Source of the DNA: a virus
Lineage: Duplodnaviria; Heunggongvirae; Uroviricota; Caudoviricetes
Strand: one strand, 5' to 3'
Length of the DNA: 37,301 bases
Virus record (IMG/VR): IMGVR_UViG_3300028610_001217
Part shown: positions 485 to 30,135 of the stretch, piece after piece
Layout of the letters: the number at the start of each line of letters is the position of its first letter
Numbering within the stretch: position 1 is the first letter of the stretch
The notes under the pieces: model-generated
The model's database searches: none
Seen by the model: only the letters and a program-made list of their open reading frames with translations
What the model was told of the DNA's origin: nothing
Position numbers and translations under genes: made by a program

Positions 485-1642
485 CTACCCCTTAATCACC
501 GCCAGCGGCGTTAGCTCAACTTCAATATCAACTAGGTCGCTTTGGTTAGCCATAACCTCAGCTATGTCCTTATAAGCACCTGGTGCTTCGTCAAGGTTGC
601 CTTTGTTCCGCACCGAATGAATAACCCCTTTAGCGTCAAGGATATCTATTTGTTCAGCCATATCAAGGCTGCGAATAGCGTCTTTGCGCCCCATCTTTCT
701 ACCTGCACCGTGGGAGCAAGACTTGAACGCCATTTCGTGACCCTTACCTTTAACAATGTAACTAAAGGCTCCTTGGGAACCCGGTATAATTCCGCGCTCT
801 CCTTCATAAGCTCTCGTTGCTCCCTTCCTATGAACAATAACATTTTGACCAAAATGGTTTTCCCAAGCGGCATAGTTATGCGCCACGTCAAGATATGTTT
901 CTTCTGGCCCAGATATTCCCTCGCTGACGAAAATCTTGATTACCTCATTCATCATGAACGCCCGGTTTTTACGGGCAAACTTAAGGCAGTATTCCATCTC
1001 AGCCATATAAGCTCTGCCCTCGTCGGTATCCGTCGGTAAAAATGCCAACTGCCATTCCTTCGGCACCTTTGAAAACCATCTTTCATTCAGCTCAACCGCC
1101 ACCTTATTATAATGACCGGCCACCTGGTGCCCAAGGTTCCGGCTACCGCTGTGAATCATTATATGGATATAGCCGCCTGAACCTTTTTGAATTTCAATAA
1201 AGTGGTTGCCCCCGCCTAAGGTTCCAACCTGCTTACGAGCCTTAGCATATTCCCGCTCAACGATAGGTGTATTGTCGGGCAAATCAGGCAAAAAGCCCGT
1301 CGCCTTCATTTCCTTATGCCAATTTTTGCCGACTGGAATCCGTTTACGGATAAGCCCCATAACCTTTTTCAAATCTTCTTTGCTGATATCCTTAATACCA
1401 AGGCTACACACGCACATACCACAACCAATATCGTACCCAACCGCATAAGGCACAACAACGCCCTTAGTAGCCATAATACCCCCGATTGGCATTCCGTACC
1501 CGACATGAGCGTCCGGCATAAGCGCAATATGCTTATAGACGAACGGTAATTCGGCCAAGTTATATGCCTGCTTCAACGCACCATCTTCTATATCGTCAAG
1601 CCACGCTTTTATTGGAAGTCCATTTTCTCTATAAACCTTCAA
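485..1642 (-). CDS. rtcB: RtcB family RNA ligase (3'-phosphate/2',3'-cyclic phosphate to 5'-OH)
   Basis: Motifs MPDAHVGYG, VGYDIGCG, GTLGGGNHFIE, HSGSR, HNYA, HRKGAT, IPGSQG, SHGAGR, DEAPGAYK. Confidence 0.97.
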   Translation of the reverse strand: MKVYRENGLPIKAWLDDIEDGALKQAYNLAELPFVYKHIALMPDAHVGYGMPIGGIMATKGVVVPYAVGYDIGCGMCVCSLGIKDISKEDLKKVMGLIRKRIPVGKNWHKEMKATGFLPDLPDNTPIVEREYAKARKQVGTLGGGNHFIEIQKGSGGYIHIMIHSGSRNLGHQVAGHYNKVAVELNERWFSKVPKEWQLAFLPTDTDEGRAYMAEMEYCLKFARKNRAFMMNEVIKIFVSEGISGPEETYLDVAHNYAAWENHFGQNVIVHRKGATRAYEGERGIIPGSQGAFSYIVKGKGHEMAFKSCSHGAGRKMGRKDAIRSLDMAEQIDILDAKGVIHSVRNKGNLDEAPGAYKDIAEVMANQSDLVDIEVELTPLAVIKG

Positions 1643-1904
1643 GTTTATCCTTCCACTCCTTCATCCTAGGCGTTGGCATTATTTCTGGCTTAATAATCTT
1701 ATCACCTTCGTGCTTATGCCCTTCTAGCCCCTCAAGCCTGGTTGTGTGTATATCCATCCTTAGTTCCAACATATCAATTTGCCCCATGCTGCTCGCAAGT
1801 CGCCTTGCTAGTAGAACGTTCGCAAGAACAACTACACACAAAAGCGCCAATGCAGATGATTGTAATATCTCAAGTATTGCGTGCACACCTATGCTCATTC
1901 CCAA
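1629..1904 (-). CDS. small membrane-anchored hypothetical protein
   Basis: One hydrophobic stretch (LALLCVVVLANVLLA); overlaps both neighbours in the operon. Confidence 0.6.
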   Translation of the reverse strand: MGMSIGVHAILEILQSSALALLCVVVLANVLLARRLASSMGQIDMLELRMDIHTTRLEGLEGHKHEGDKIIKPEIMPTPRMKEWKDKLEGL

Positions 1905-2266
1905 TCCACCTTTTCCCCTTCTTCGTTATAGACCGTTATAGGTAACTTCGCCCTTTTAGCTTTCCTTAGGGTGTCAAACGTCCCGGTGCTATGCCCATCC
2001 CAAAATGCAACAACTTCGTCAGACGCCTTAACTATTTCTGTATTTCTCATAAATAGAGCTAATGGTATCCCATATTTAAGCACATTCGGTGGTTTGATGG
2101 CTACTTCGTACCCATTCTTTATAGCTTCAACCTCAGCCGTTCTATCAACACCCCGAGCTGCCCCGGAAACAACTATTGCCCCTGCCGGTAAGTTGCGTAC
2201 GAACTTCCGCACCAAGCCTAAGTTATTATAATCGCGAGAACCTACGATTGCGATCCTATGACTCAT
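1895..2266 (-). CDS. SLOG-superfamily protein (DUF2493/YspA-like)
   Basis: IAIVGSR, VVSGAARGVD, RN..IV, VVAFWDG.S.GT motifs. Confidence 0.85.
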   Translation of the reverse strand: MSHRIAIVGSRDYNNLGLVRKFVRNLPAGAIVVSGAARGVDRTAEVEAIKNGYEVAIKPPNVLKYGIPLALFMRNTEIVKASDEVVAFWDGHSTGTFDTLRKAKRAKLPITVYNEEGEKVDWE

Positions 2267-2558
2267 TTTCGCAACACGCCTTTAGGTCATGATACTTAGT
2301 ACCGTTCGGGACGATTTCTTCATATAGCATAAAGCAGTCATCGTTTAAATAGAAAATAGTGAAATCGCCTATTACTTCAACGTCTGTGGCATTATTAGGG
2401 ATCAAAGACTTTTCCGGTTCATCCGGAACGCCCTCAGCCCTCTCTCGTGCCTTATCAGCGGCACTACCGAAAACCGGAATGCCGACTGCGACCAAAATAC
2501 CGATGATCAGAACTATAACCATTAGCTCTACGAGTGTGAAGCCTTTTTGGTTTGCCAT
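2256..2558 (-). CDS. type IV prepilin-like protein (class III signal peptide) with a non-pilin C-terminal domain
   Basis: QKG|FTLVELMVIVLIIGILVAVGIPVF. ATG at 2558 overlaps the upstream TGA (TGATG coupling). Confidence 0.85.
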   Translation of the reverse strand: MANQKGFTLVELMVIVLIIGILVAVGIPVFGSAADKARERAEGVPDEPEKSLIPNNATDVEVIGDFTIFYLNDDCFMLYEEIVPNGTKYHDLKACCENES

Positions 2559-2836
2559 CAATTACACCCTCTTAATTCTGGGTAATGGTTTGGTCTGTCA
2601 CGATAAATAAAGCACTCATTGTCTATGTAAAATATCGTATTGTATTCATCTATCTTAACCGTTTTATCAGCTCGACTTAATACCTTCTGTGCAACCACTG
2701 CTCGCTGTTTAACTCGCTGCATAGGGCCATACTTGACCACAACAAAAGCAAGCCCTGCGGCAATAATAATTGTTAGGCCAAGAAAAACTATGTTAACTCT
2801 ATTTCTCAATAGTCTCCCTCTGCGCAAGCAAGACAT
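2558..2836 (-). CDS. single-TM protein, C-terminal domain paralogous to the adjacent prepilin-like protein
   Basis: TM segment IVFLGLTIIIAAGLAFVVV; TIFYIDNECF aligns with TIFYLNDDCF of the neighbour. True start may be a later TTG. Confidence 0.7.
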   Translation of the reverse strand: MSCLRRGRLLRNRVNIVFLGLTIIIAAGLAFVVVKYGPMQRVKQRAVVAQKVLSRADKTVKIDEYNTIFYIDNECFIYRDRPNHYPELRGCN

Positions 2837-3249
2837 GTAAGGCCGTTACGTCTCCACATCGAGACAACTCTGGCGCGGTCTTCCACTACAAACTCAATTG
2901 AGTATTTACCCGAAAGCACAGAAATATAAACTTCTTGCTTTAATTCACAATCAGAAATAAAATTCCCAACAGGTCGAAGATGCAATTCGTCGTATGGTAT
3001 ATTATGAAGCTTCAGCCAACGCTCTGTTTCGCCCCGAACACTTTCTGTCCTTCCGCTAACCAGCAAAATCTTATACCCAGCACCCTTATACATCCGCACT
3101 AAATTTGCTGCCCATTCGTAAACGCCATCATCAACACAACCAGATTCGAAATTGCACCAGTCCTTGCTATCGCGCCCAACTAAAAGATGAATTCTATGAG
3201 AAATATCAGCTAATGTACCATCAATATCCACAATGATGGCTTTATCCAT
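2806..3249 (-). CDS. HAD phosphatase, T4 polynucleotide kinase 3'-phosphatase-like (stand-alone)
   Basis: VDIDGTLA, VSGR, LHLRP, D..LK, VEDR..VV.MWR..GL.C motifs; no kinase domain. Confidence 0.88.
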   Translation of the reverse strand: MDKAIIVDIDGTLADISHRIHLLVGRDSKDWCNFESGCVDDGVYEWAANLVRMYKGAGYKILLVSGRTESVRGETERWLKLHNIPYDELHLRPVGNFISDCELKQEVYISVLSGKYSIEFVVEDRARVVSMWRRNGLTCLACAEGDY

Positions 3250-3943
3250 TACCTATCCTTTCTATTAACGCTGCTTCAAGTGCCACCTCAGGGTTTTCCC
3301 TAATATCTTTCTCCCAAATTCTTACTACCTCATAGCCTAACGCTCTCATAAATATATCTCGTTCCCTATCGCTTTCCCTTACCCCCGGCCTACCGTGCCA
3401 ATAGTCTCCGTCACATTCTATATTCAAGTTACAACAAGGGATGAATATATCGCATTCCCTTCCTGCATAATATTTATTATCAATATGAGTGACGCCCCAT
3501 TCATCTAAGACCGCCCTTATGGCAAGCTCTATGGTTGTGCCAGCATATGTTCTTCCTTCTCGCATCTTCCTTAACTGTTCTTGCTTTGCCTCGGGATCGC
3601 CCCATCGCCTAGCAGATGCTTCGCGCATTTTGTCCTTAGTTTCTTCTGAAGGTGAACCGCGCAATACCCCTTGTTTAGCCTTACTTATTTTAAGCTTAGT
3701 TTCTTCAGAATGTTTCTTGCCTTTCGGCCAACAAACTCCAACCCTCTTTTTCTGAGATTCGCTCATTTTCTGTTTGGTTTCCTCAGAATGCTTTCTACCT
3801 TTCATCCAAGACGGCTTACCCTTGAGGGCATTACTTATTTTAAGCTTAGTTTCTTCAGAAGTCTCTTTGCGTTTTCTGCCTTTGAGTGCGTCACCTCTCT
3901 TCTTTCGGTGTTCAACTGTTTGCTTATATCCCTTTCGGGGCAT
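3242..3943 (-). CDS. NUMOD3-repeat plus DUF559/Vsr-like endonuclease (homing-endonuclease-like)
   Basis: Repeated (H/T/P)SEETK.K(I/M) motifs; C-terminal DIFIP...IECDGDYWH...D.ERD...GY.VVRIWE. Confidence 0.8.
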   Translation of the reverse strand: MPRKGYKQTVEHRKKRGDALKGRKRKETSEETKLKISNALKGKPSWMKGRKHSEETKQKMSESQKKRVGVCWPKGKKHSEETKLKISKAKQGVLRGSPSEETKDKMREASARRWGDPEAKQEQLRKMREGRTYAGTTIELAIRAVLDEWGVTHIDNKYYAGRECDIFIPCCNLNIECDGDYWHGRPGVRESDRERDIFMRALGYEVVRIWEKDIRENPEVALEAALIERIGNG

Positions 3944-4765: not shown

Positions 4766-5205
4766 TGCTCCAATTCCTTAACCACTCCGTCGAATTCTTC
4801 TGGTTTATTTTTAGCAAGCCACTCCAACCAGAGCAGCCCATACAGCGTTAAATCCATTATTGTAGTAGCTTTCGATTCATCGCCTAAGTTTCCAATAACC
4901 GGATTACCATCGATACCGCTGGTCATAATAGCTTCAATTCGATCGTATTTTCTTGTTAAATTGCTGAAAAGCCCAAGTAATTCACCATGTTTTGCATAAC
5001 TATCGCGATATACCGTGTTCTTCTTAGCACACAACTTAATCATCGCTTCAGACAACCGACTAAGATTCGCGGTCAATTCCCCTGGCCGCGTTTGATCACC
5101 TTCCGGCCTGAATTGTAAATATGTTTTTGGTTGTTTAGGTGGCTCCCCTCCCTCACTTTCCTCGATCAAGTGGTCCAAATATTCATCCGTCATTCCCCCG
5201 CTCAT
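4747..5205 (-). CDS. Nmad1/DUF1599-like all-alpha nucleotide-modification-associated protein (MazG/dNTP pyrophosphatase-like)
   Basis: KKN.VY.DSY, RKYDRI, DES...T..DL.LY pattern; directly downstream of the TS homologue. Confidence 0.65.
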   Translation of the reverse strand: MSGGMTDEYLDHLIEESEGGEPPKQPKTYLQFRPEGDQTRPGELTANLSRLSEAMIKLCAKKNTVYRDSYAKHGELLGLFSNLTRKYDRIEAIMTSGIDGNPVIGNLGDESKATTIMDLTLYGLLWLEWLAKNKPEEFDGVVKELEQWGIQL

Positions 5206-23307: not shown

Positions 23308-24132
23308 CTATGCTACTCCTCTTTGTATTCCTCTGTTGATGCCCCTAAATGGACCTCGTATTGCTATTAGTTCTACTGGTGCTGCTGCTGCTGCAATTGA
23401 TTGCGGTGTCATTATATATGTTGGGTAACTTAAAACTTCTTCCGCTTGCCACGTAAGAACATTCCCAGCACCATCATCACCAGTTCCGTTATTGGTATTG
23501 CTGCTAATATCAAGAACCGTGTCACCGTTAGCATTTGTTCCATGCGGCTTATCGTCCATTGGCCAGTAGGCCACAAGATTTGCGGGAGCAACCTGTAAGG
23601 GTATTCTCTTAACCCTTGAATCGCACAATAAGGCAGCCTGAATAGCAGATAAATCTGTATTCCAAAAAGCTATCTCACCAATAGTTCCGTCCCAATATGA
23701 TGCAACATCCCTAAGGCTACCAATGAATAAAGAAACAGCATTATTTATATTCCCCATGACCCCGGAAGAAACTGTAGCGCCATTAGATAAGGCACCGTCA
23801 ATATATATATCAGGCAAATCTCCAGAATATACAAAGGTTGCGTGGTGCCAAGCTCCATCATCTAGGCCAGTAGCCGCTGATGTTCTAACTCGTCTATTGG
23901 CTGACCCATTTGTCCAAACCTGCCAAGAAATAGCTCCGCCCGAACTTTGCCTTAATTCTGTGAAAAATCCACGTGTAATATCATATTTAGTAACAAATGT
24001 TCCAATTTGGGCAGCACCCAAGGTATTATGTTTAAACCAAACAGCACAAGAAAAATTCCCTGACCCAAAATCCAGTGTCGCATTATCATCAACACTAACT
24101 ATTTCGTCTGTCCCGCCAAATAGAATAGGCAT
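23308..24132 (-). CDS. LamG/concanavalin-A-like domain protein (carbohydrate-binding virion protein)
   Basis: FS...WFK, DGAWHH..FVY, IYIDG, FIG, WDG.I.E.AFWN..LS, LVAYW.MD. Confidence 0.85.
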   Translation of the reverse strand: MPILFGGTDEIVSVDDNATLDFGSGNFSCAVWFKHNTLGAAQIGTFVTKYDITRGFFTELRQSSGGAISWQVWTNGSANRRVRTSAATGLDDGAWHHATFVYSGDLPDIYIDGALSNGATVSSGVMGNINNAVSLFIGSLRDVASYWDGTIGEIAFWNTDLSAIQAALLCDSRVKRIPLQVAPANLVAYWPMDDKPHGTNANGDTVLDISSNTNNGTGDDGAGNVLTWQAEEVLSYPTYIMTPQSIAAAAAPVELIAIRGPFRGINRGIQRGVA

Positions 24133-26386: not shown

Positions 26387-27922
26387 TCATCGGCTCACCA
26401 GCTCAAAATCTAAACGTGAAGCAGGTGTTTCTAGCTGAATAGTAACCGACTCTTCTGATCCTGATATATTTACACTTACTGCTGTAACTTCAAATATATT
26501 TATGCCATTTGTTACTGTTGAAGCAGACATATCCCCTAAGGTCGCAGGCGAAGCATCTAAATCATGTATTTGAATAATATCATTAGGGCGGATAAACCAT
26601 GCAGGCTTATTGCCGAATTTAGAAAGAATCGGCCCCTTTAATATCATTTGCCCTTTTGCGCGAGGTCTCCCAAATTCTGTTAAAAATTGGTCACCTGCTT
26701 CTTCGGCAGCAGTTGTTGATGTTGTGTTAACTTTAATATGAGCTTCTTTGGTAATTCCAAAGTTATCAAATAAATCTATAATTGCAGTGCGGGTAACAGT
26801 AGTAGTTCTTCCGTCAGAAGTTAAAAACTCCACCACGACAGAATTAAACATTTCTTGAATTGATTTCCCAGCTAAATCTAATAACCCGTCGTCTACGGAT
26901 ATAAACCAATCAATTGTATCTCTTAATATTGCAGTTGCCCGATAGCGAGGTTTATCGTCTGAACCGACTTCGTAAATACCAGTCTTCCAATCTTCCCCAA
27001 CAACAGCTCTCTTTATCAGCTCTAAAGGAGTGGTAGGGTTTTCCGCAAAGAAGTCTGTAATTGTTGCTGTGCCAGTATCTATGTCGGAAAAGTCCGTAGA
27101 TAACGCAGTTGCGAAATCGGGAATAATATCCTTAATAAAATCATCTGCTGTATTGGTGCCGGTAAAATTTGAAGAACCGTTTACCCGAAGACTCGTACCC
27201 TTAAAATGCGTTGAACTATTCCCCGTAATAACAGCAGAATTAGCGAGGTGAAAAGCTACACCCTTTTTCCCCGCAGTTAATACAATATCTGTTGATCCTG
27301 ATTGATTTGTAAGGTCACCTTCTAGGCTAAATTCTGTAACAGGGTTTGTAATGTCGTCGTCATAAGAAGTTAGGCGGCCAAATCTACTAGTGCCAATTCC
27401 CCCTCCAAGTTCAAAATCAAACACAACACTGTAAATATCTTGATTGATTGCGTCACTATTAGAGAGTCGATAATAAAGACCCGTAAAAGAAGGAGCGGGT
27501 AAAGTCCCATCCCTTACTTTGATAAATACACGGTTGTTGTTGTCTCTATCCGTCCCATCCCAGTTGTTGCCGTTAGGGTACGGCACAGGAGGAGTTACAT
27601 CCCAATTAGCCGATCCAGTATCTACCCACAATTTTTGTACGAGTTCATCCTTGAGGTGGGATGTGTACCCCACCGCCGTAATAAGAACTTCTCCGCTTTC
27701 TGTTACAAGAGGTTCATCCTCTATTCTCCCCAACCAAAGTAATTCGGTATTGTCGTAAATTCTAAGGTCATCTAGTTGTTCAGGTAAATCCATTTCGTTA
27801 GGTAATAGAATTTCTGCTTTCTCGCAACCTGCACCAATTAGGTATGAAAAGTTAAGAGTATAAATAGTCGCCGGGTGAAATTGGTTTCCGCCGCCATCTT
27901 TTGTGACAATGTTTATACTCAT
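26387..27922 (-). CDS. baseplate hub/Tal-like tail protein
   Basis: Second gene after the TMP; LWLGRIE, ITAVGY, N.VVV.F patterns. Confidence 0.65.
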   Translation of the reverse strand: MSINIVTKDGGGNQFHPATIYTLNFSYLIGAGCEKAEILLPNEMDLPEQLDDLRIYDNTELLWLGRIEDEPLVTESGEVLITAVGYTSHLKDELVQKLWVDTGSANWDVTPPVPYPNGNNWDGTDRDNNNRVFIKVRDGTLPAPSFTGLYYRLSNSDAINQDIYSVVFDFELGGGIGTSRFGRLTSYDDDITNPVTEFSLEGDLTNQSGSTDIVLTAGKKGVAFHLANSAVITGNSSTHFKGTSLRVNGSSNFTGTNTADDFIKDIIPDFATALSTDFSDIDTGTATITDFFAENPTTPLELIKRAVVGEDWKTGIYEVGSDDKPRYRATAILRDTIDWFISVDDGLLDLAGKSIQEMFNSVVVEFLTSDGRTTTVTRTAIIDLFDNFGITKEAHIKVNTTSTTAAEEAGDQFLTEFGRPRAKGQMILKGPILSKFGNKPAWFIRPNDIIQIHDLDASPATLGDMSASTVTNGINIFEVTAVSVNISGSEESVTIQLETPASRLDFELVSR

Positions 27923-30135
27923 CCGCTTGACTCCGGCGAGAGGAACCTAGCAAAATATTTCATCGTCACCAATGCGTCATTTATACCTTTTTGTTTATTA
28001 GTTGCCGAACCTGTAGAAGTTTCAAGAATAACAATATTATTCCTTAGGCCCGGTCGCAAAAGAGGTGGGGAACCGTTCCAAGTTACTCTTTGAAATCCCT
28101 TATTGACAGCATTCATATCTGAATCCAACGTAATAGCTTGTCCTTGAGTAGCACCGTCGTTTGCTGTGCTCCCACCGATAAAAACTGCTTCGCCGTCTAT
28201 CGGTAATAAAACTCCAATGTCTGCATCAAAGTTCTTGTCGGGATTTCCTTCTGTTGTTCCCCTGGCTTCTAATTTAATAATAGGTGTCGGGTTGATTTCG
28301 TCTGAAACCCTTGTAATGGGAACATTTATTTCGCCTAAGTTCAGTATTTGAAACGTTGTACTGTTCAACATTGTTACCGTGTCATTTGTGACTACAGTTC
28401 CGCCCGCAAAGCCCGCTGATGCCCTTACTTCCGTGTTTGAAGGGGTTTCTGAACGACACCGTAGAAAGACTATATAACGTCCTCGATAATCCTGAACCGA
28501 AGATAAAGACCACCCCGCAGCGGGTTGAGTCCATGTTGTGCCTCCGTCTACGGTTTTAATTACTAAGAATCCAAACCCGACTATATAAATAGTATTAGCG
28601 TCAACTATATAAATTGCGATTAGAGTAGAACCCGTACCAGAAGCTTGGGCCGTCCACGTTGACCCGTCAGCGGTAACCCGCAAAACTCCGTTGTTACCGG
28701 CAAACCACCCCACACTAGAGGAGTTCATTCTAATTTTATTTAGCTCACCAGTTTCATTTGAGGTTTGAGCTGTCCACCCCGTAGAACCGCCCCCCCCAGT
28801 AGTTCTAACAAGTGTTCCTGACGATCCACAAGAAAAGACTACATTAGAAGTTGGGGCATTAATGCTTCGTAATGAATCAAAAGCATTTCCGGAATCATTT
28901 ACCCACGTTGACCCCGCCTCACCGCTGCCAGTAGTTTTAAAGATTGCCCCAAAATCTTCATCATTCCCGCAAGCATATAAAACATTAGAAGTTGGAGCAG
29001 TAATGTCTACAATATTAAGGGTTCCAGGTACTCCTTCTAGTTGAGTTGTAATCGCCCCTGTAGAAGTAAATCCGTCTGTAGTACGCATGATAAATGACGC
29101 TACCCCGCTCCCAGTAACCCACCCTACATTTGAGGAGCTAAATACTAATGCGTTAAAGTCTACTAAAGTCCCAGTGGCCTTAAGGCTCCACGTCGCTCCT
29201 CCATCAGTAGTCCTAATAACTACTCCACTTTTCCCGCAAGCAAATACAGTGTTATCACCTAGAGCTTGAACACCAGTTAATCTAATCCCCACATTTGAGG
29301 TTTGTTCCGACCATGTATTAGCCCCGTTCGTGGTTTTAAACACGACTCCGGCGTCACCAACCGCCCAACCTATCGCTGGCGTAGCAGTTGAAAACGAAAC
29401 TGCGTACAAATCGTCGTTGTCACCCGTAACAGAAGTAAACGCCGAAGTAACAGCAACAGTGGAAAATTCTCCGTTATGCGTAAACCCAGTAGAGTTACTT
29501 GAGTTACCTTGAAAGTCTTTCAACGGGTCGAACAAGGTTTCGGAAATAGGAGCCTTACGAGTTCCTACATATAAGTCATTACCAAACCCATTAGAAGACG
29601 CAGCTATTTCAACAAATACAGGAGTTTCTATGTCTCCCGATACTGTAGAGGCAGCTAAGATGGCAGGGGTTGGACTAAATGTTTGTTGAGCAATTGTTAT
29701 TTGCTCTCCCCGCCAAAACGGCTCACATTCTAAGTGTAAGATAGCCTCAATAGCAGTATTCTTCTCTGTATAAAACCATTCTAATCTTGTTTGCCTTGAC
29801 CCCGAAATAACATCAGAAAAGTTATCTACTGAGCCGCCATTGGGTGTATATTGAAGAACTAAAGAATCGCCAACATCTAATTTACGTAGTTCGGTTTCAA
29901 TAGCCCTTAGGTTTCCATTAAGCGAATCTTTAGTGCCATCTGAGCTTGAGACAATTAATTGTATTGTCCGTATGACATTAGGATATCTTTTTTTAACAAG
30001 TACGTCTCCGTCCCTAAAAGCCCTTGCCCTCATAGTAAGTTCAGGCTGAGGTTCTAAGAAGTCATGACCATTTACTTTAACCCCATATGGCGAAGAGGTT
30101 AAAGTCAAATTCCCCAATATAATTACATCAGCCAT
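27919..30135 (-). CDS. distal tail (Dit)-like protein with an inserted YCF48/BNR beta-propeller
   Basis: First gene after the TMP; CEPFWRG Dit-like motif; about seven (K/R)TTDGG.TW Asp-box repeats. Confidence 0.75.
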   Translation of the reverse strand: MADVIILGNLTLTSSPYGVKVNGHDFLEPQPELTMRARAFRDGDVLVKKRYPNVIRTIQLIVSSSDGTKDSLNGNLRAIETELRKLDVGDSLVLQYTPNGGSVDNFSDVISGSRQTRLEWFYTEKNTAIEAILHLECEPFWRGEQITIAQQTFSPTPAILAASTVSGDIETPVFVEIAASSNGFGNDLYVGTRKAPISETLFDPLKDFQGNSSNSTGFTHNGEFSTVAVTSAFTSVTGDNDDLYAVSFSTATPAIGWAVGDAGVVFKTTNGANTWSEQTSNVGIRLTGVQALGDNTVFACGKSGVVIRTTDGGATWSLKATGTLVDFNALVFSSSNVGWVTGSGVASFIMRTTDGFTSTGAITTQLEGVPGTLNIVDITAPTSNVLYACGNDEDFGAIFKTTGSGEAGSTWVNDSGNAFDSLRSINAPTSNVVFSCGSSGTLVRTTGGGGSTGWTAQTSNETGELNKIRMNSSSVGWFAGNNGVLRVTADGSTWTAQASGTGSTLIAIYIVDANTIYIVGFGFLVIKTVDGGTTWTQPAAGWSLSSVQDYRGRYIVFLRCRSETPSNTEVRASAGFAGGTVVTNDTVTMLNSTTFQILNLGEINVPITRVSDEINPTPIIKLEARGTTEGNPDKNFDADIGVLLPIDGEAVFIGGSTANDGATQGQAITLDSDMNAVNKGFQRVTWNGSPPLLRPGLRNNIVILETSTGSATNKQKGINDALVTMKYFARFLSPESSG

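What the first reader, a model, noticed from the sequence alone, without database searches (positions are those of the whole stretch)
2256..2836. Phage-encoded type IV pilin mimic paired with a paralogue that shares its C-terminal domain
Seen: a complete class III signal peptide (KG|FTLVE, Glu+5, hydrophobic helix, IP.F, then KARERA) on a domain of about 55 aa. The translationally coupled upstream gene carries the same domain (TIFYLNDDCF vs TIFYIDNECF) on an ordinary TM anchor. Inference: after duplication, one copy acquired a host pilin N-terminus, so the host prepilin peptidase could process it and build it into, cap or jam the pilus. This would be superinfection exclusion or pilus hijacking by a pseudo-pilin rather than by a cytoplasmic ATPase inhibitor.
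Basis: partly seen in the sequence, partly recalled or inferred. Interest (0 to 1): 0.7.

Follow-up and report, generated by a model that had tools for sequence, protein, structure and literature searches.

The report
Pilin signal grafted on phage domain
An uncultured, probably lytic phage has attached the front end of a bacterial pilus subunit to one copy of its own small surface-protein family, whose other copies use ordinary export signals; this probably lets it interfere with the host's pili, a trick already known from other phages, but nobody has tested it here.

Summary
Observation confirmed. Window 2256-2558 (-) encodes a 100-aa protein (P1) with an intact class III signal. Its first ~35 mature residues match bacterial major pilins, Coriobacteriia among the named hits (up to 28/34 identical); the match stops there. 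The remainder is a ~45-aa, two-cysteine beta-meander domain shared with the coupled upstream gene (P2, real start probably 2809) and a third, lipoprotein-type copy elsewhere in this 101-kb phage (external HMM: E 5e-7, 1e-8, 4e-17). Related phage contigs add four homologues carrying lipoprotein, Sec-type or pilin-type N-termini. The domain matches no library family and no pilin head by sequence. Two corrections. The pilin helix is not this lineage's post-duplication gain, because a single-copy syntenic orthologue already has it. That orthologue keeps Glu+5 but has Lys, not Gly, at -1, so cleavage may be dispensable. Best reading (0.55): a pilus-directed decoy for superinfection exclusion; main rival (0.3): a borrowed membrane anchor. 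Phage pilin mimics are published (PMC12952977), and this scan noted similar hybrids on other DNA (e1-3418761, e1-1600764). New variant of a known kind; function untested.

The parts
2256..2558 (-). P1: 100-aa chimeric protein, prepilin N-terminus plus phage beta-meander domain
   Evidence: identical gene called in 4 contigs
2541..2558 (-). 6-residue hydrophilic leader ending in Gly-1; predicted prepilin-peptidase cut between 2541 and 2540
   Evidence: sequence; PF07963 and TIGR02532 above cut-off; cleavage itself is inferred
2436..2540 (-). Pilin alpha-1 helix, mature residues +1 to +35 (Phe+1, Glu+5, Gly+14, Pro+22); similarity to host pilins ends just before their near-invariant Cys+36/Asn+39
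   Evidence: helix 9-41 in AlphaFold model
2259..2414 (-). C-terminal domain of P1: predicted antiparallel beta-meander, invariant Cys75 and Cys95 (probable disulfide)
2558..2809 (-). P2: 83-aa paralogue, TTG start, ordinary hydrophobic anchor, same domain; coupled to PNKP upstream and to P1 downstream
2735..2791 (-). Transmembrane anchor of P2 (residues 7-25); 2 basic residues before it and 4 after it, so topology is not certain
2561..2692 (-). C-terminal domain of P2, both cysteines kept
2806..3249 (-). Upstream neighbour: PNKP-type HAD phosphatase (synteny marker, also precedes the orthologue in L016)
1895..2266 (-). Downstream neighbour: SLOG/YspA-like protein (synteny marker, also follows the homologue in L101)

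Best explanation
P1 is a pilus-directed decoy made during infection by an apparently lytic phage. An ancestor of this phage group captured the first ~35 residues of a host major pilin (PilA-type, probably from a deep-branching actinobacterium) and fused them to a member of its own family of small exported two-cysteine beta-meander proteins. The helix inserts the protein in the membrane with the domain outside (inferred from established prepilin biology). In this phage the intact Gly-1/Phe+1/Glu+5 lets the host prepilin peptidase process it (inferred). It then joins the pilin pool and either enters the fibre, showing a foreign head in place of the pilin head, or stalls assembly because it lacks most of alpha-1C and the native head contacts (inferred). 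The uncleavable orthologue could do only the membrane-level stalling or sequestering. The likely payoff is fewer usable pilus receptors for competing phages. Shown: anatomy, homology, breakpoint, conservation. Not shown: expression, processing, binding, effect on pili, or use of pili by this phage.
For: Complete class III signal above curated cut-offs. The best matches are pilins that sit in pilB-pilC-pilA-pilD operons. Similarity ends at +35, before the Cys+36 (97/101) and Asn+39 (99/101) of those pilins. The helix is under purifying selection: P1 vs L016 dN 0.23 with saturated synonymous sites. It is more conserved between these two (23/34, 68%) than the domain is (39%), which a generic anchor would not need. 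P1 keeps 27-28/34 identity to pilins although third codon positions are only 38-56% identical. Precedent: P-FimU is built into pili and blocks adsorption, and truncated PilA-like proteins occur in virulent phages (PMC12952977). No tyrosine integrase or serine recombinase was found in the complete genome, and the genes lie in the replication and nucleotide-metabolism block, which fits expression in infected cells.
Against: The syntenic orthologue (L016) has Lys-1/Ile+1 and fails PF07963 (10.5 bits), whereas Gly-1 is described as absolutely critical for processing (PMC4471445). Four of seven family members have ordinary anchors or signals, so the domain has a job that needs no pilus. Between L016 and L101 the domain is more constrained (dN 0.03) than the helix end (dN 0.15). 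Nothing here shows that this phage or its competitors bind pili. The host is not identified: the best pilin matches lie on 61-63% GC contigs, apart from one at 49%, against 43.7% for the phage.
Confidence: 0.55

Rival explanations
1. The pilin helix is a borrowed membrane anchor. The family's function lies in the exported domain (for example masking a non-pilus receptor or an envelope protein), and class III, lipoprotein, Sec-type and plain transmembrane N-termini are interchangeable ways to get it to the surface.
For: Four kinds of N-terminus on one domain among seven homologues; the L016 orthologue lost Gly-1 yet is retained under selection; the prepilin motif alone suffices for membrane insertion, and processed pilins stay membrane proteins until extruded (PMC4471445).
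Against: P1 has kept the exact cleavage motif despite synonymous saturation; helix identity between P1 and L016 (68%) exceeds domain identity (39%), including the polar residues after the transmembrane part.
Confidence: 0.3
2. The whole protein is a captured, highly diverged pilin: the beta-meander is a remnant pilin head, and the lipoprotein and Sec-type copies derive from it.
For: Pilin heads are four-stranded antiparallel beta-meanders with a C-terminal D-region usually stapled to the last strand (PMC4471445); the model has the same strand pattern and a cysteine pair.
Against: An HMM of 101 nearest pilin heads gives negative scores on all seven domains, and the domain HMM does not hit those pilins (best E 1.4). 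Alpha-1 stops at +35 and a Pro/acidic low-confidence linker follows. Lipoprotein members carry the domain with no helix to pack on.
Confidence: 0.07
3. P1 is a modular minor pilin that remodels rather than blocks the pilus, giving infected cells a new adhesive surface (as the SNJ2 provirus pilins do for their host), possibly together with the phage's pseudaminic-acid-like pathway.
Against: No integrase found, so a lasting benefit to the host is unlikely; the uncleavable orthologue could not do this; no link to the sugar pathway was shown.
Confidence: 0.05
4. A recent, non-functional capture of host DNA, or an assembly artefact.
For: All homologues come from a small set of metagenome assemblies that share one set of phages.
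Against: Identical gene in JGI and ENA assemblies; three phage lineages share the helix with saturated synonymous sites and low dN; ribosome-binding site and stop/start coupling are intact.
Confidence: 0.03

Closest known systems
P-FimU of F10-like Pseudomonas prophages, plus the P-PilA and ~60-residue truncated PilA-like proteins listed in the same study (Sztanko et al., PMC12952977)
   Same: Phage-encoded protein with a host-type class III signal; proposed or shown to enter the pilus and block phage adsorption; the truncated forms occur in virulent phages.
   Different: P-FimU and P-PilA are full pilin homologues with a pilin head, and P-FimU complements the host gene. P1 has only ~35 residues of pilin, followed by a phage-specific domain that also exists on lipoprotein, Sec-type and plain anchors. 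The probable host is not a proteobacterium. Nothing was tested for P1.
SNJ2 provirus pilins PilA1/PilA2 of Natrinema (PMC12426801)
   Same: Virus-encoded pilins, two tandem genes, that rely on the host machinery.
   Different: Archaeal and temperate; both genes are pilins that form filaments; here only one of the tandem genes has a class III signal.
Major pilin PilA (type IVa, PF07963/TIGR02532) of Coriobacteriia-like Actinomycetota, e.g. P0008 and P0019 in pilB-pilC-pilA-pilD operons
   Same: Mature residues -1 to +33 are 27-28/34 identical; short leader.
   Different: No Cys+36/Asn+39, no alpha-1C continuation and no detectable head homology; no assembly genes nearby.
Hybrid phage pilins noted earlier in this scan (e1-3418761, e1-1600764; AI notes, not checked here)
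   Same: Pilin front end joined to a phage-only domain.
   Different: Other genomes; I did not compare their domains with this one. Here the domain's non-pilin relatives and a naturally uncleavable orthologue are in hand.

Membership tests
Type IV prepilin-like proteins (class III signal peptide) | Short hydrophilic leader ending in Gly-1 | tested here: met
   6-residue leader ending in Gly; not met in the L016 orthologue (Lys-1)
Type IV prepilin-like proteins (class III signal peptide) | ~21 hydrophobic residues interrupted by Glu+5 | tested here: met
Type IV prepilin-like proteins (class III signal peptide) | Cleavage by prepilin peptidase | not testable with these tools
   needs an experiment
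Type IVa major pilins | Sequence homology over alpha-1C and the globular head | tested here: not met
   similarity ends at +35; pilin-head HMM scores are negative on the domain; full-length pilin models are far below cut-off and match only residues 1-40
Type IVa major pilins | Pilin fold: ~50-residue alpha-1 with its C-terminal half packed on a beta-meander | tested here: inconclusive
   model pLDDT 70, pTM 0.38; helix 9-41, low-confidence linker, then strands; fold searches gave no significant match
Type IVa major pilins | Polymerises into or is incorporated in a filament | not testable with these tools
   needs an experiment
P-FimU-type phage pilus-replacement proteins | Full-length homology to a host pilin, including the head | tested here: not met
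P-FimU-type phage pilus-replacement proteins | Expressed from a prophage | tested here: inconclusive
   no PF00589 or PF07508 match in the complete genome; expression data not obtained
P-FimU-type phage pilus-replacement proteins | Blocks adsorption of pilus-binding phages | not testable with these tools
   host and phage are uncultured

The most novel reading that the evidence does not exclude
The family is a natural address-swapping series: one small phage surface domain is sent to the pilus (cleavable class III signal), held in the membrane (uncleavable pilin helix or plain anchor), lipid-anchored or secreted, and the pilin-tagged copy displays that phage domain on the host pilus as a modular pseudo-pilin that excludes competing phages in a monoderm actinobacterial host.
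Probability: 0.25. Interest if true: 0.65.

Novelty: new variant of a known kind. Interest (0 to 1): 0.4.

Why it matters
Phage-encoded pilin mimics were shown to work only recently, and only as full-length pilins in Pseudomonas. Their authors left open whether truncated forms enter the pilus or jam its assembly. This locus supplies a ready-made comparison: a cleavable chimera, a naturally uncleavable orthologue, and same-domain paralogues with ordinary anchors. Together they could separate 'incorporate', 'jam' and 'anchor only'. It also shows how such mimics can arise (graft of ~35 pilin residues onto an existing exported domain) and hints at an actinobacterial host with type IVa pili. The limits are a narrow distribution, an uncultured host and no functional data.

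Tried and rejected
Searches for distant domain homologues found nothing outside this phage group: 1.84-billion representatives with the P2 domain (self only; a single sequence was used, before the alignment existed), word-index search with the four-domain profile, IMG/VR scans, GenBank phages, Pfam, PHROGs, NCBIfam and PDB sequences and ESM Atlas. These are sensitivity-limited blanks. A weak phrog_884 hit of the lipoprotein copy (E 0.039) did not recur in other members or in the genome search: rejected. Fold searches: best Z 5.1 (rmsd 3.2, 45 aligned) to beta-propeller blades, among many ties. Foldseek's top row was Neisseria pilin 1ay2 at E 0.22, rmsd 13.7, not significant; BFVD gave nothing below E 0.001. 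The one complex job (P1 domain with P2 domain) returned 'no answer', score 0.19 against a mark of 0.32; it is evidence neither way. The domain tree cannot order events (AU p 0.31 and 0.18). The 5' end of the L101 homologue could not be recovered, so its cleavage site is unknown. A distant relative (L120, primase 42%) has neither the domain nor a pilin motif. WhiB was not found, so it adds nothing on the host. The promoter scan was at chance level.

Full report
Setting. The window is part of a complete 101,279-bp virus record with direct terminal repeats and 43.7% GC. It has tail genes, an M23 endolysin, a primase-helicase, a thymidylate-synthase-like gene, a PNKP phosphatase and RtcB. Neither a tyrosine integrase nor a serine recombinase was found, so it looks lytic (inference). 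The two genes lie on the minus strand in a tightly packed block of replication and nucleotide genes, between PNKP and a SLOG protein.

Observation. P1 (2558->2256, 100 aa) has a 6-residue leader ending in Gly, followed by Phe+1, Thr+2, Glu+5, Gly+14 and Pro+22. It passes the curated cut-offs of PF07963 and TIGR02532. P2 ends in a TGATG overlap with P1's start. P2 most likely starts at TTG 2809, with its own ribosome site and overlapping the PNKP stop, giving 83 aa. It has a plain hydrophobic anchor.

Origin of the N-terminus. The 101 homologues returned are prepilin-type proteins, most matching only the first ~37 residues, the best at 75-81% identity. Named ones include Coriobacteriia, and two examined lie in pilB-pilC-pilA-pilD operons, the position of a major pilin. 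Position by position, P1 follows the pilin consensus to +35 and then departs, lacking Cys+36 (97/101) and Asn+39 (99/101). The nearest pilin gene at DNA level among the four compared (L113, 77%, on a 49% GC contig) is the only one of the 101 with Gly+25, which the P1 and L016 proteins share. An actinobacterial host of lower GC is therefore a lead, not a result.

The C-terminal domain. A third copy lies outside the window at G000:C1:10365-10613 with a lipoprotein-like signal. Related phage contigs add four more: L016 (single gene between PNKP and RtcB), L101 (5'-cut, before SLOG), and a tandem pair in L102 with a lipobox and a Sec-type signal. An HMM built only from these four outside sequences finds exactly the three copies among 681 ORFs (E 4e-17, 9.8e-9, 5.2e-7; next 0.14). 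An HMM without any pilin-type member still finds P1 and P2 (E 2e-4, 2e-3), and no shuffle of 2000 reaches the real scores. Two cysteines are invariant. AlphaFold gives helix 9-41, a low-confidence linker and a short antiparallel beta-meander (pLDDT 70, pTM 0.38). Pilin heads are also beta-meanders (PMC4471445), so I tested this. Profiles of 101 pilin heads and of the domain do not recognise each other, and lipoprotein members have no helix to pack on. P1 is best read as a chimera; the fold question stays formally open.

Order of events. The domain tree splits the PNKP-locus proteins (P1, P2, L016, L101) from the lipoprotein and Sec-type ones (96/97) but is unresolved inside. Three of the four PNKP-locus proteins have the pilin helix. 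L016 has it as a single gene, with saturated synonymous sites against P1 (pS 0.81, dN 0.23), and its domain is closer to P2 (50%) than to P1 (39%). So the capture is older than the split of these phages. P2 may have lost the helix after a tandem duplication, or may be an older sister; the data reject neither (AU p 0.31).

The uncleavable orthologue. L016's protein begins Met-Gly-Lys-Ile, right behind a ribosome site and a stop/start overlap, identically in five assemblies. In register it has Lys at -1 and Ile at +1, while keeping Glu+5, Gly+14, Pro+22 and 23/34 identity to P1. Gly-1 is described as absolutely critical for processing (PMC4471445). The gene is nevertheless strongly conserved against L101 (domain dN 0.03, synonymous sites saturated). 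In at least one lineage, then, function probably does not need processing. This argues against obligatory pilus incorporation. It fits either a membrane-level decoy or a mere anchor.

Mechanism. I put 0.55 on a pilus-directed decoy. The reasons are the intact motif in P1 despite only 38-56% third-position identity to pilin genes, the helix being more conserved than the domain between P1 and L016, and precedent. P-FimU enters pili and blocks adsorption; truncated PilA-like proteins of virulent phages were proposed to enter or jam the pilus (PMC12952977). The anchor-only reading gets 0.3 because one domain rides on four kinds of N-terminus. Every step after membrane insertion is inference.

Novelty and score. 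Phage-encoded pilins are published (PMC12952977, PMC12426801), and this scan has noted pilin-front/phage-domain hybrids in other genomes (unchecked AI notes). I found no paper on a pilin helix grafted onto a domain whose paralogues carry lipoprotein, Sec-type and plain anchors (open-access library only). It is a new variant of a known kind, with a useful built-in comparison series but a narrow distribution and no functional data. Interest 0.4.

Noticed in passing
G000:C1:10365-10613 (+), outside the window (L006:2366-2614): Third paralogue of the domain with a lipoprotein-like signal (Gln at -2 of the lipobox is atypical); its orthologue in L102 (4518-4772) has a canonical lipobox and sits in tandem with a Sec-signal copy (4769-5029).
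   Followed up: yes
L016:9672-9944 (+): Orthologue with the pilin helix but Gly-Lys instead of Lys-Gly before +1: a natural, probably uncleavable prepilin.
   Followed up: yes
Such sugars decorate pili and flagella in some bacteria; a link to the pilin mimic is speculation.
   Followed up: no
window 485-1642 and 2806-3249 (-): RtcB ligase and a stand-alone PNKP phosphatase domain flank the locus, a possible RNA-repair pair; also adjacent in L016/L103.
   Followed up: partly
window 3242-3943 (-): NUMOD3 plus Vsr-like/DUF559 homing endonuclease with DNA-level relatives at G000 28608 and 30429; in L016 a related gene sits at a different position.
   Followed up: no
window 27919-30135 (-): 738-aa tail-region protein with a YCF48/BNR propeller insert, and a LamG protein at 23308-24132: candidate receptor-binding parts, receptor unknown.
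   Followed up: no
G000:C1:7156-7878 and L102:3489-4208: Membrane-anchored protein whose L102/L109 counterpart hits glucosaminidase PF01832, 0.3 kb upstream of the lipoprotein/Sec pair in L102: another envelope-directed gene near the domain family.
   Followed up: no
G000:C1:100324-101253 (+): 309-aa membrane protein whose start resembles SPFH/band-7 proteins by eye; earlier notes report SPFH next to mini-pilins in other phages, but here it is about 14 kb from P1.
   Followed up: no
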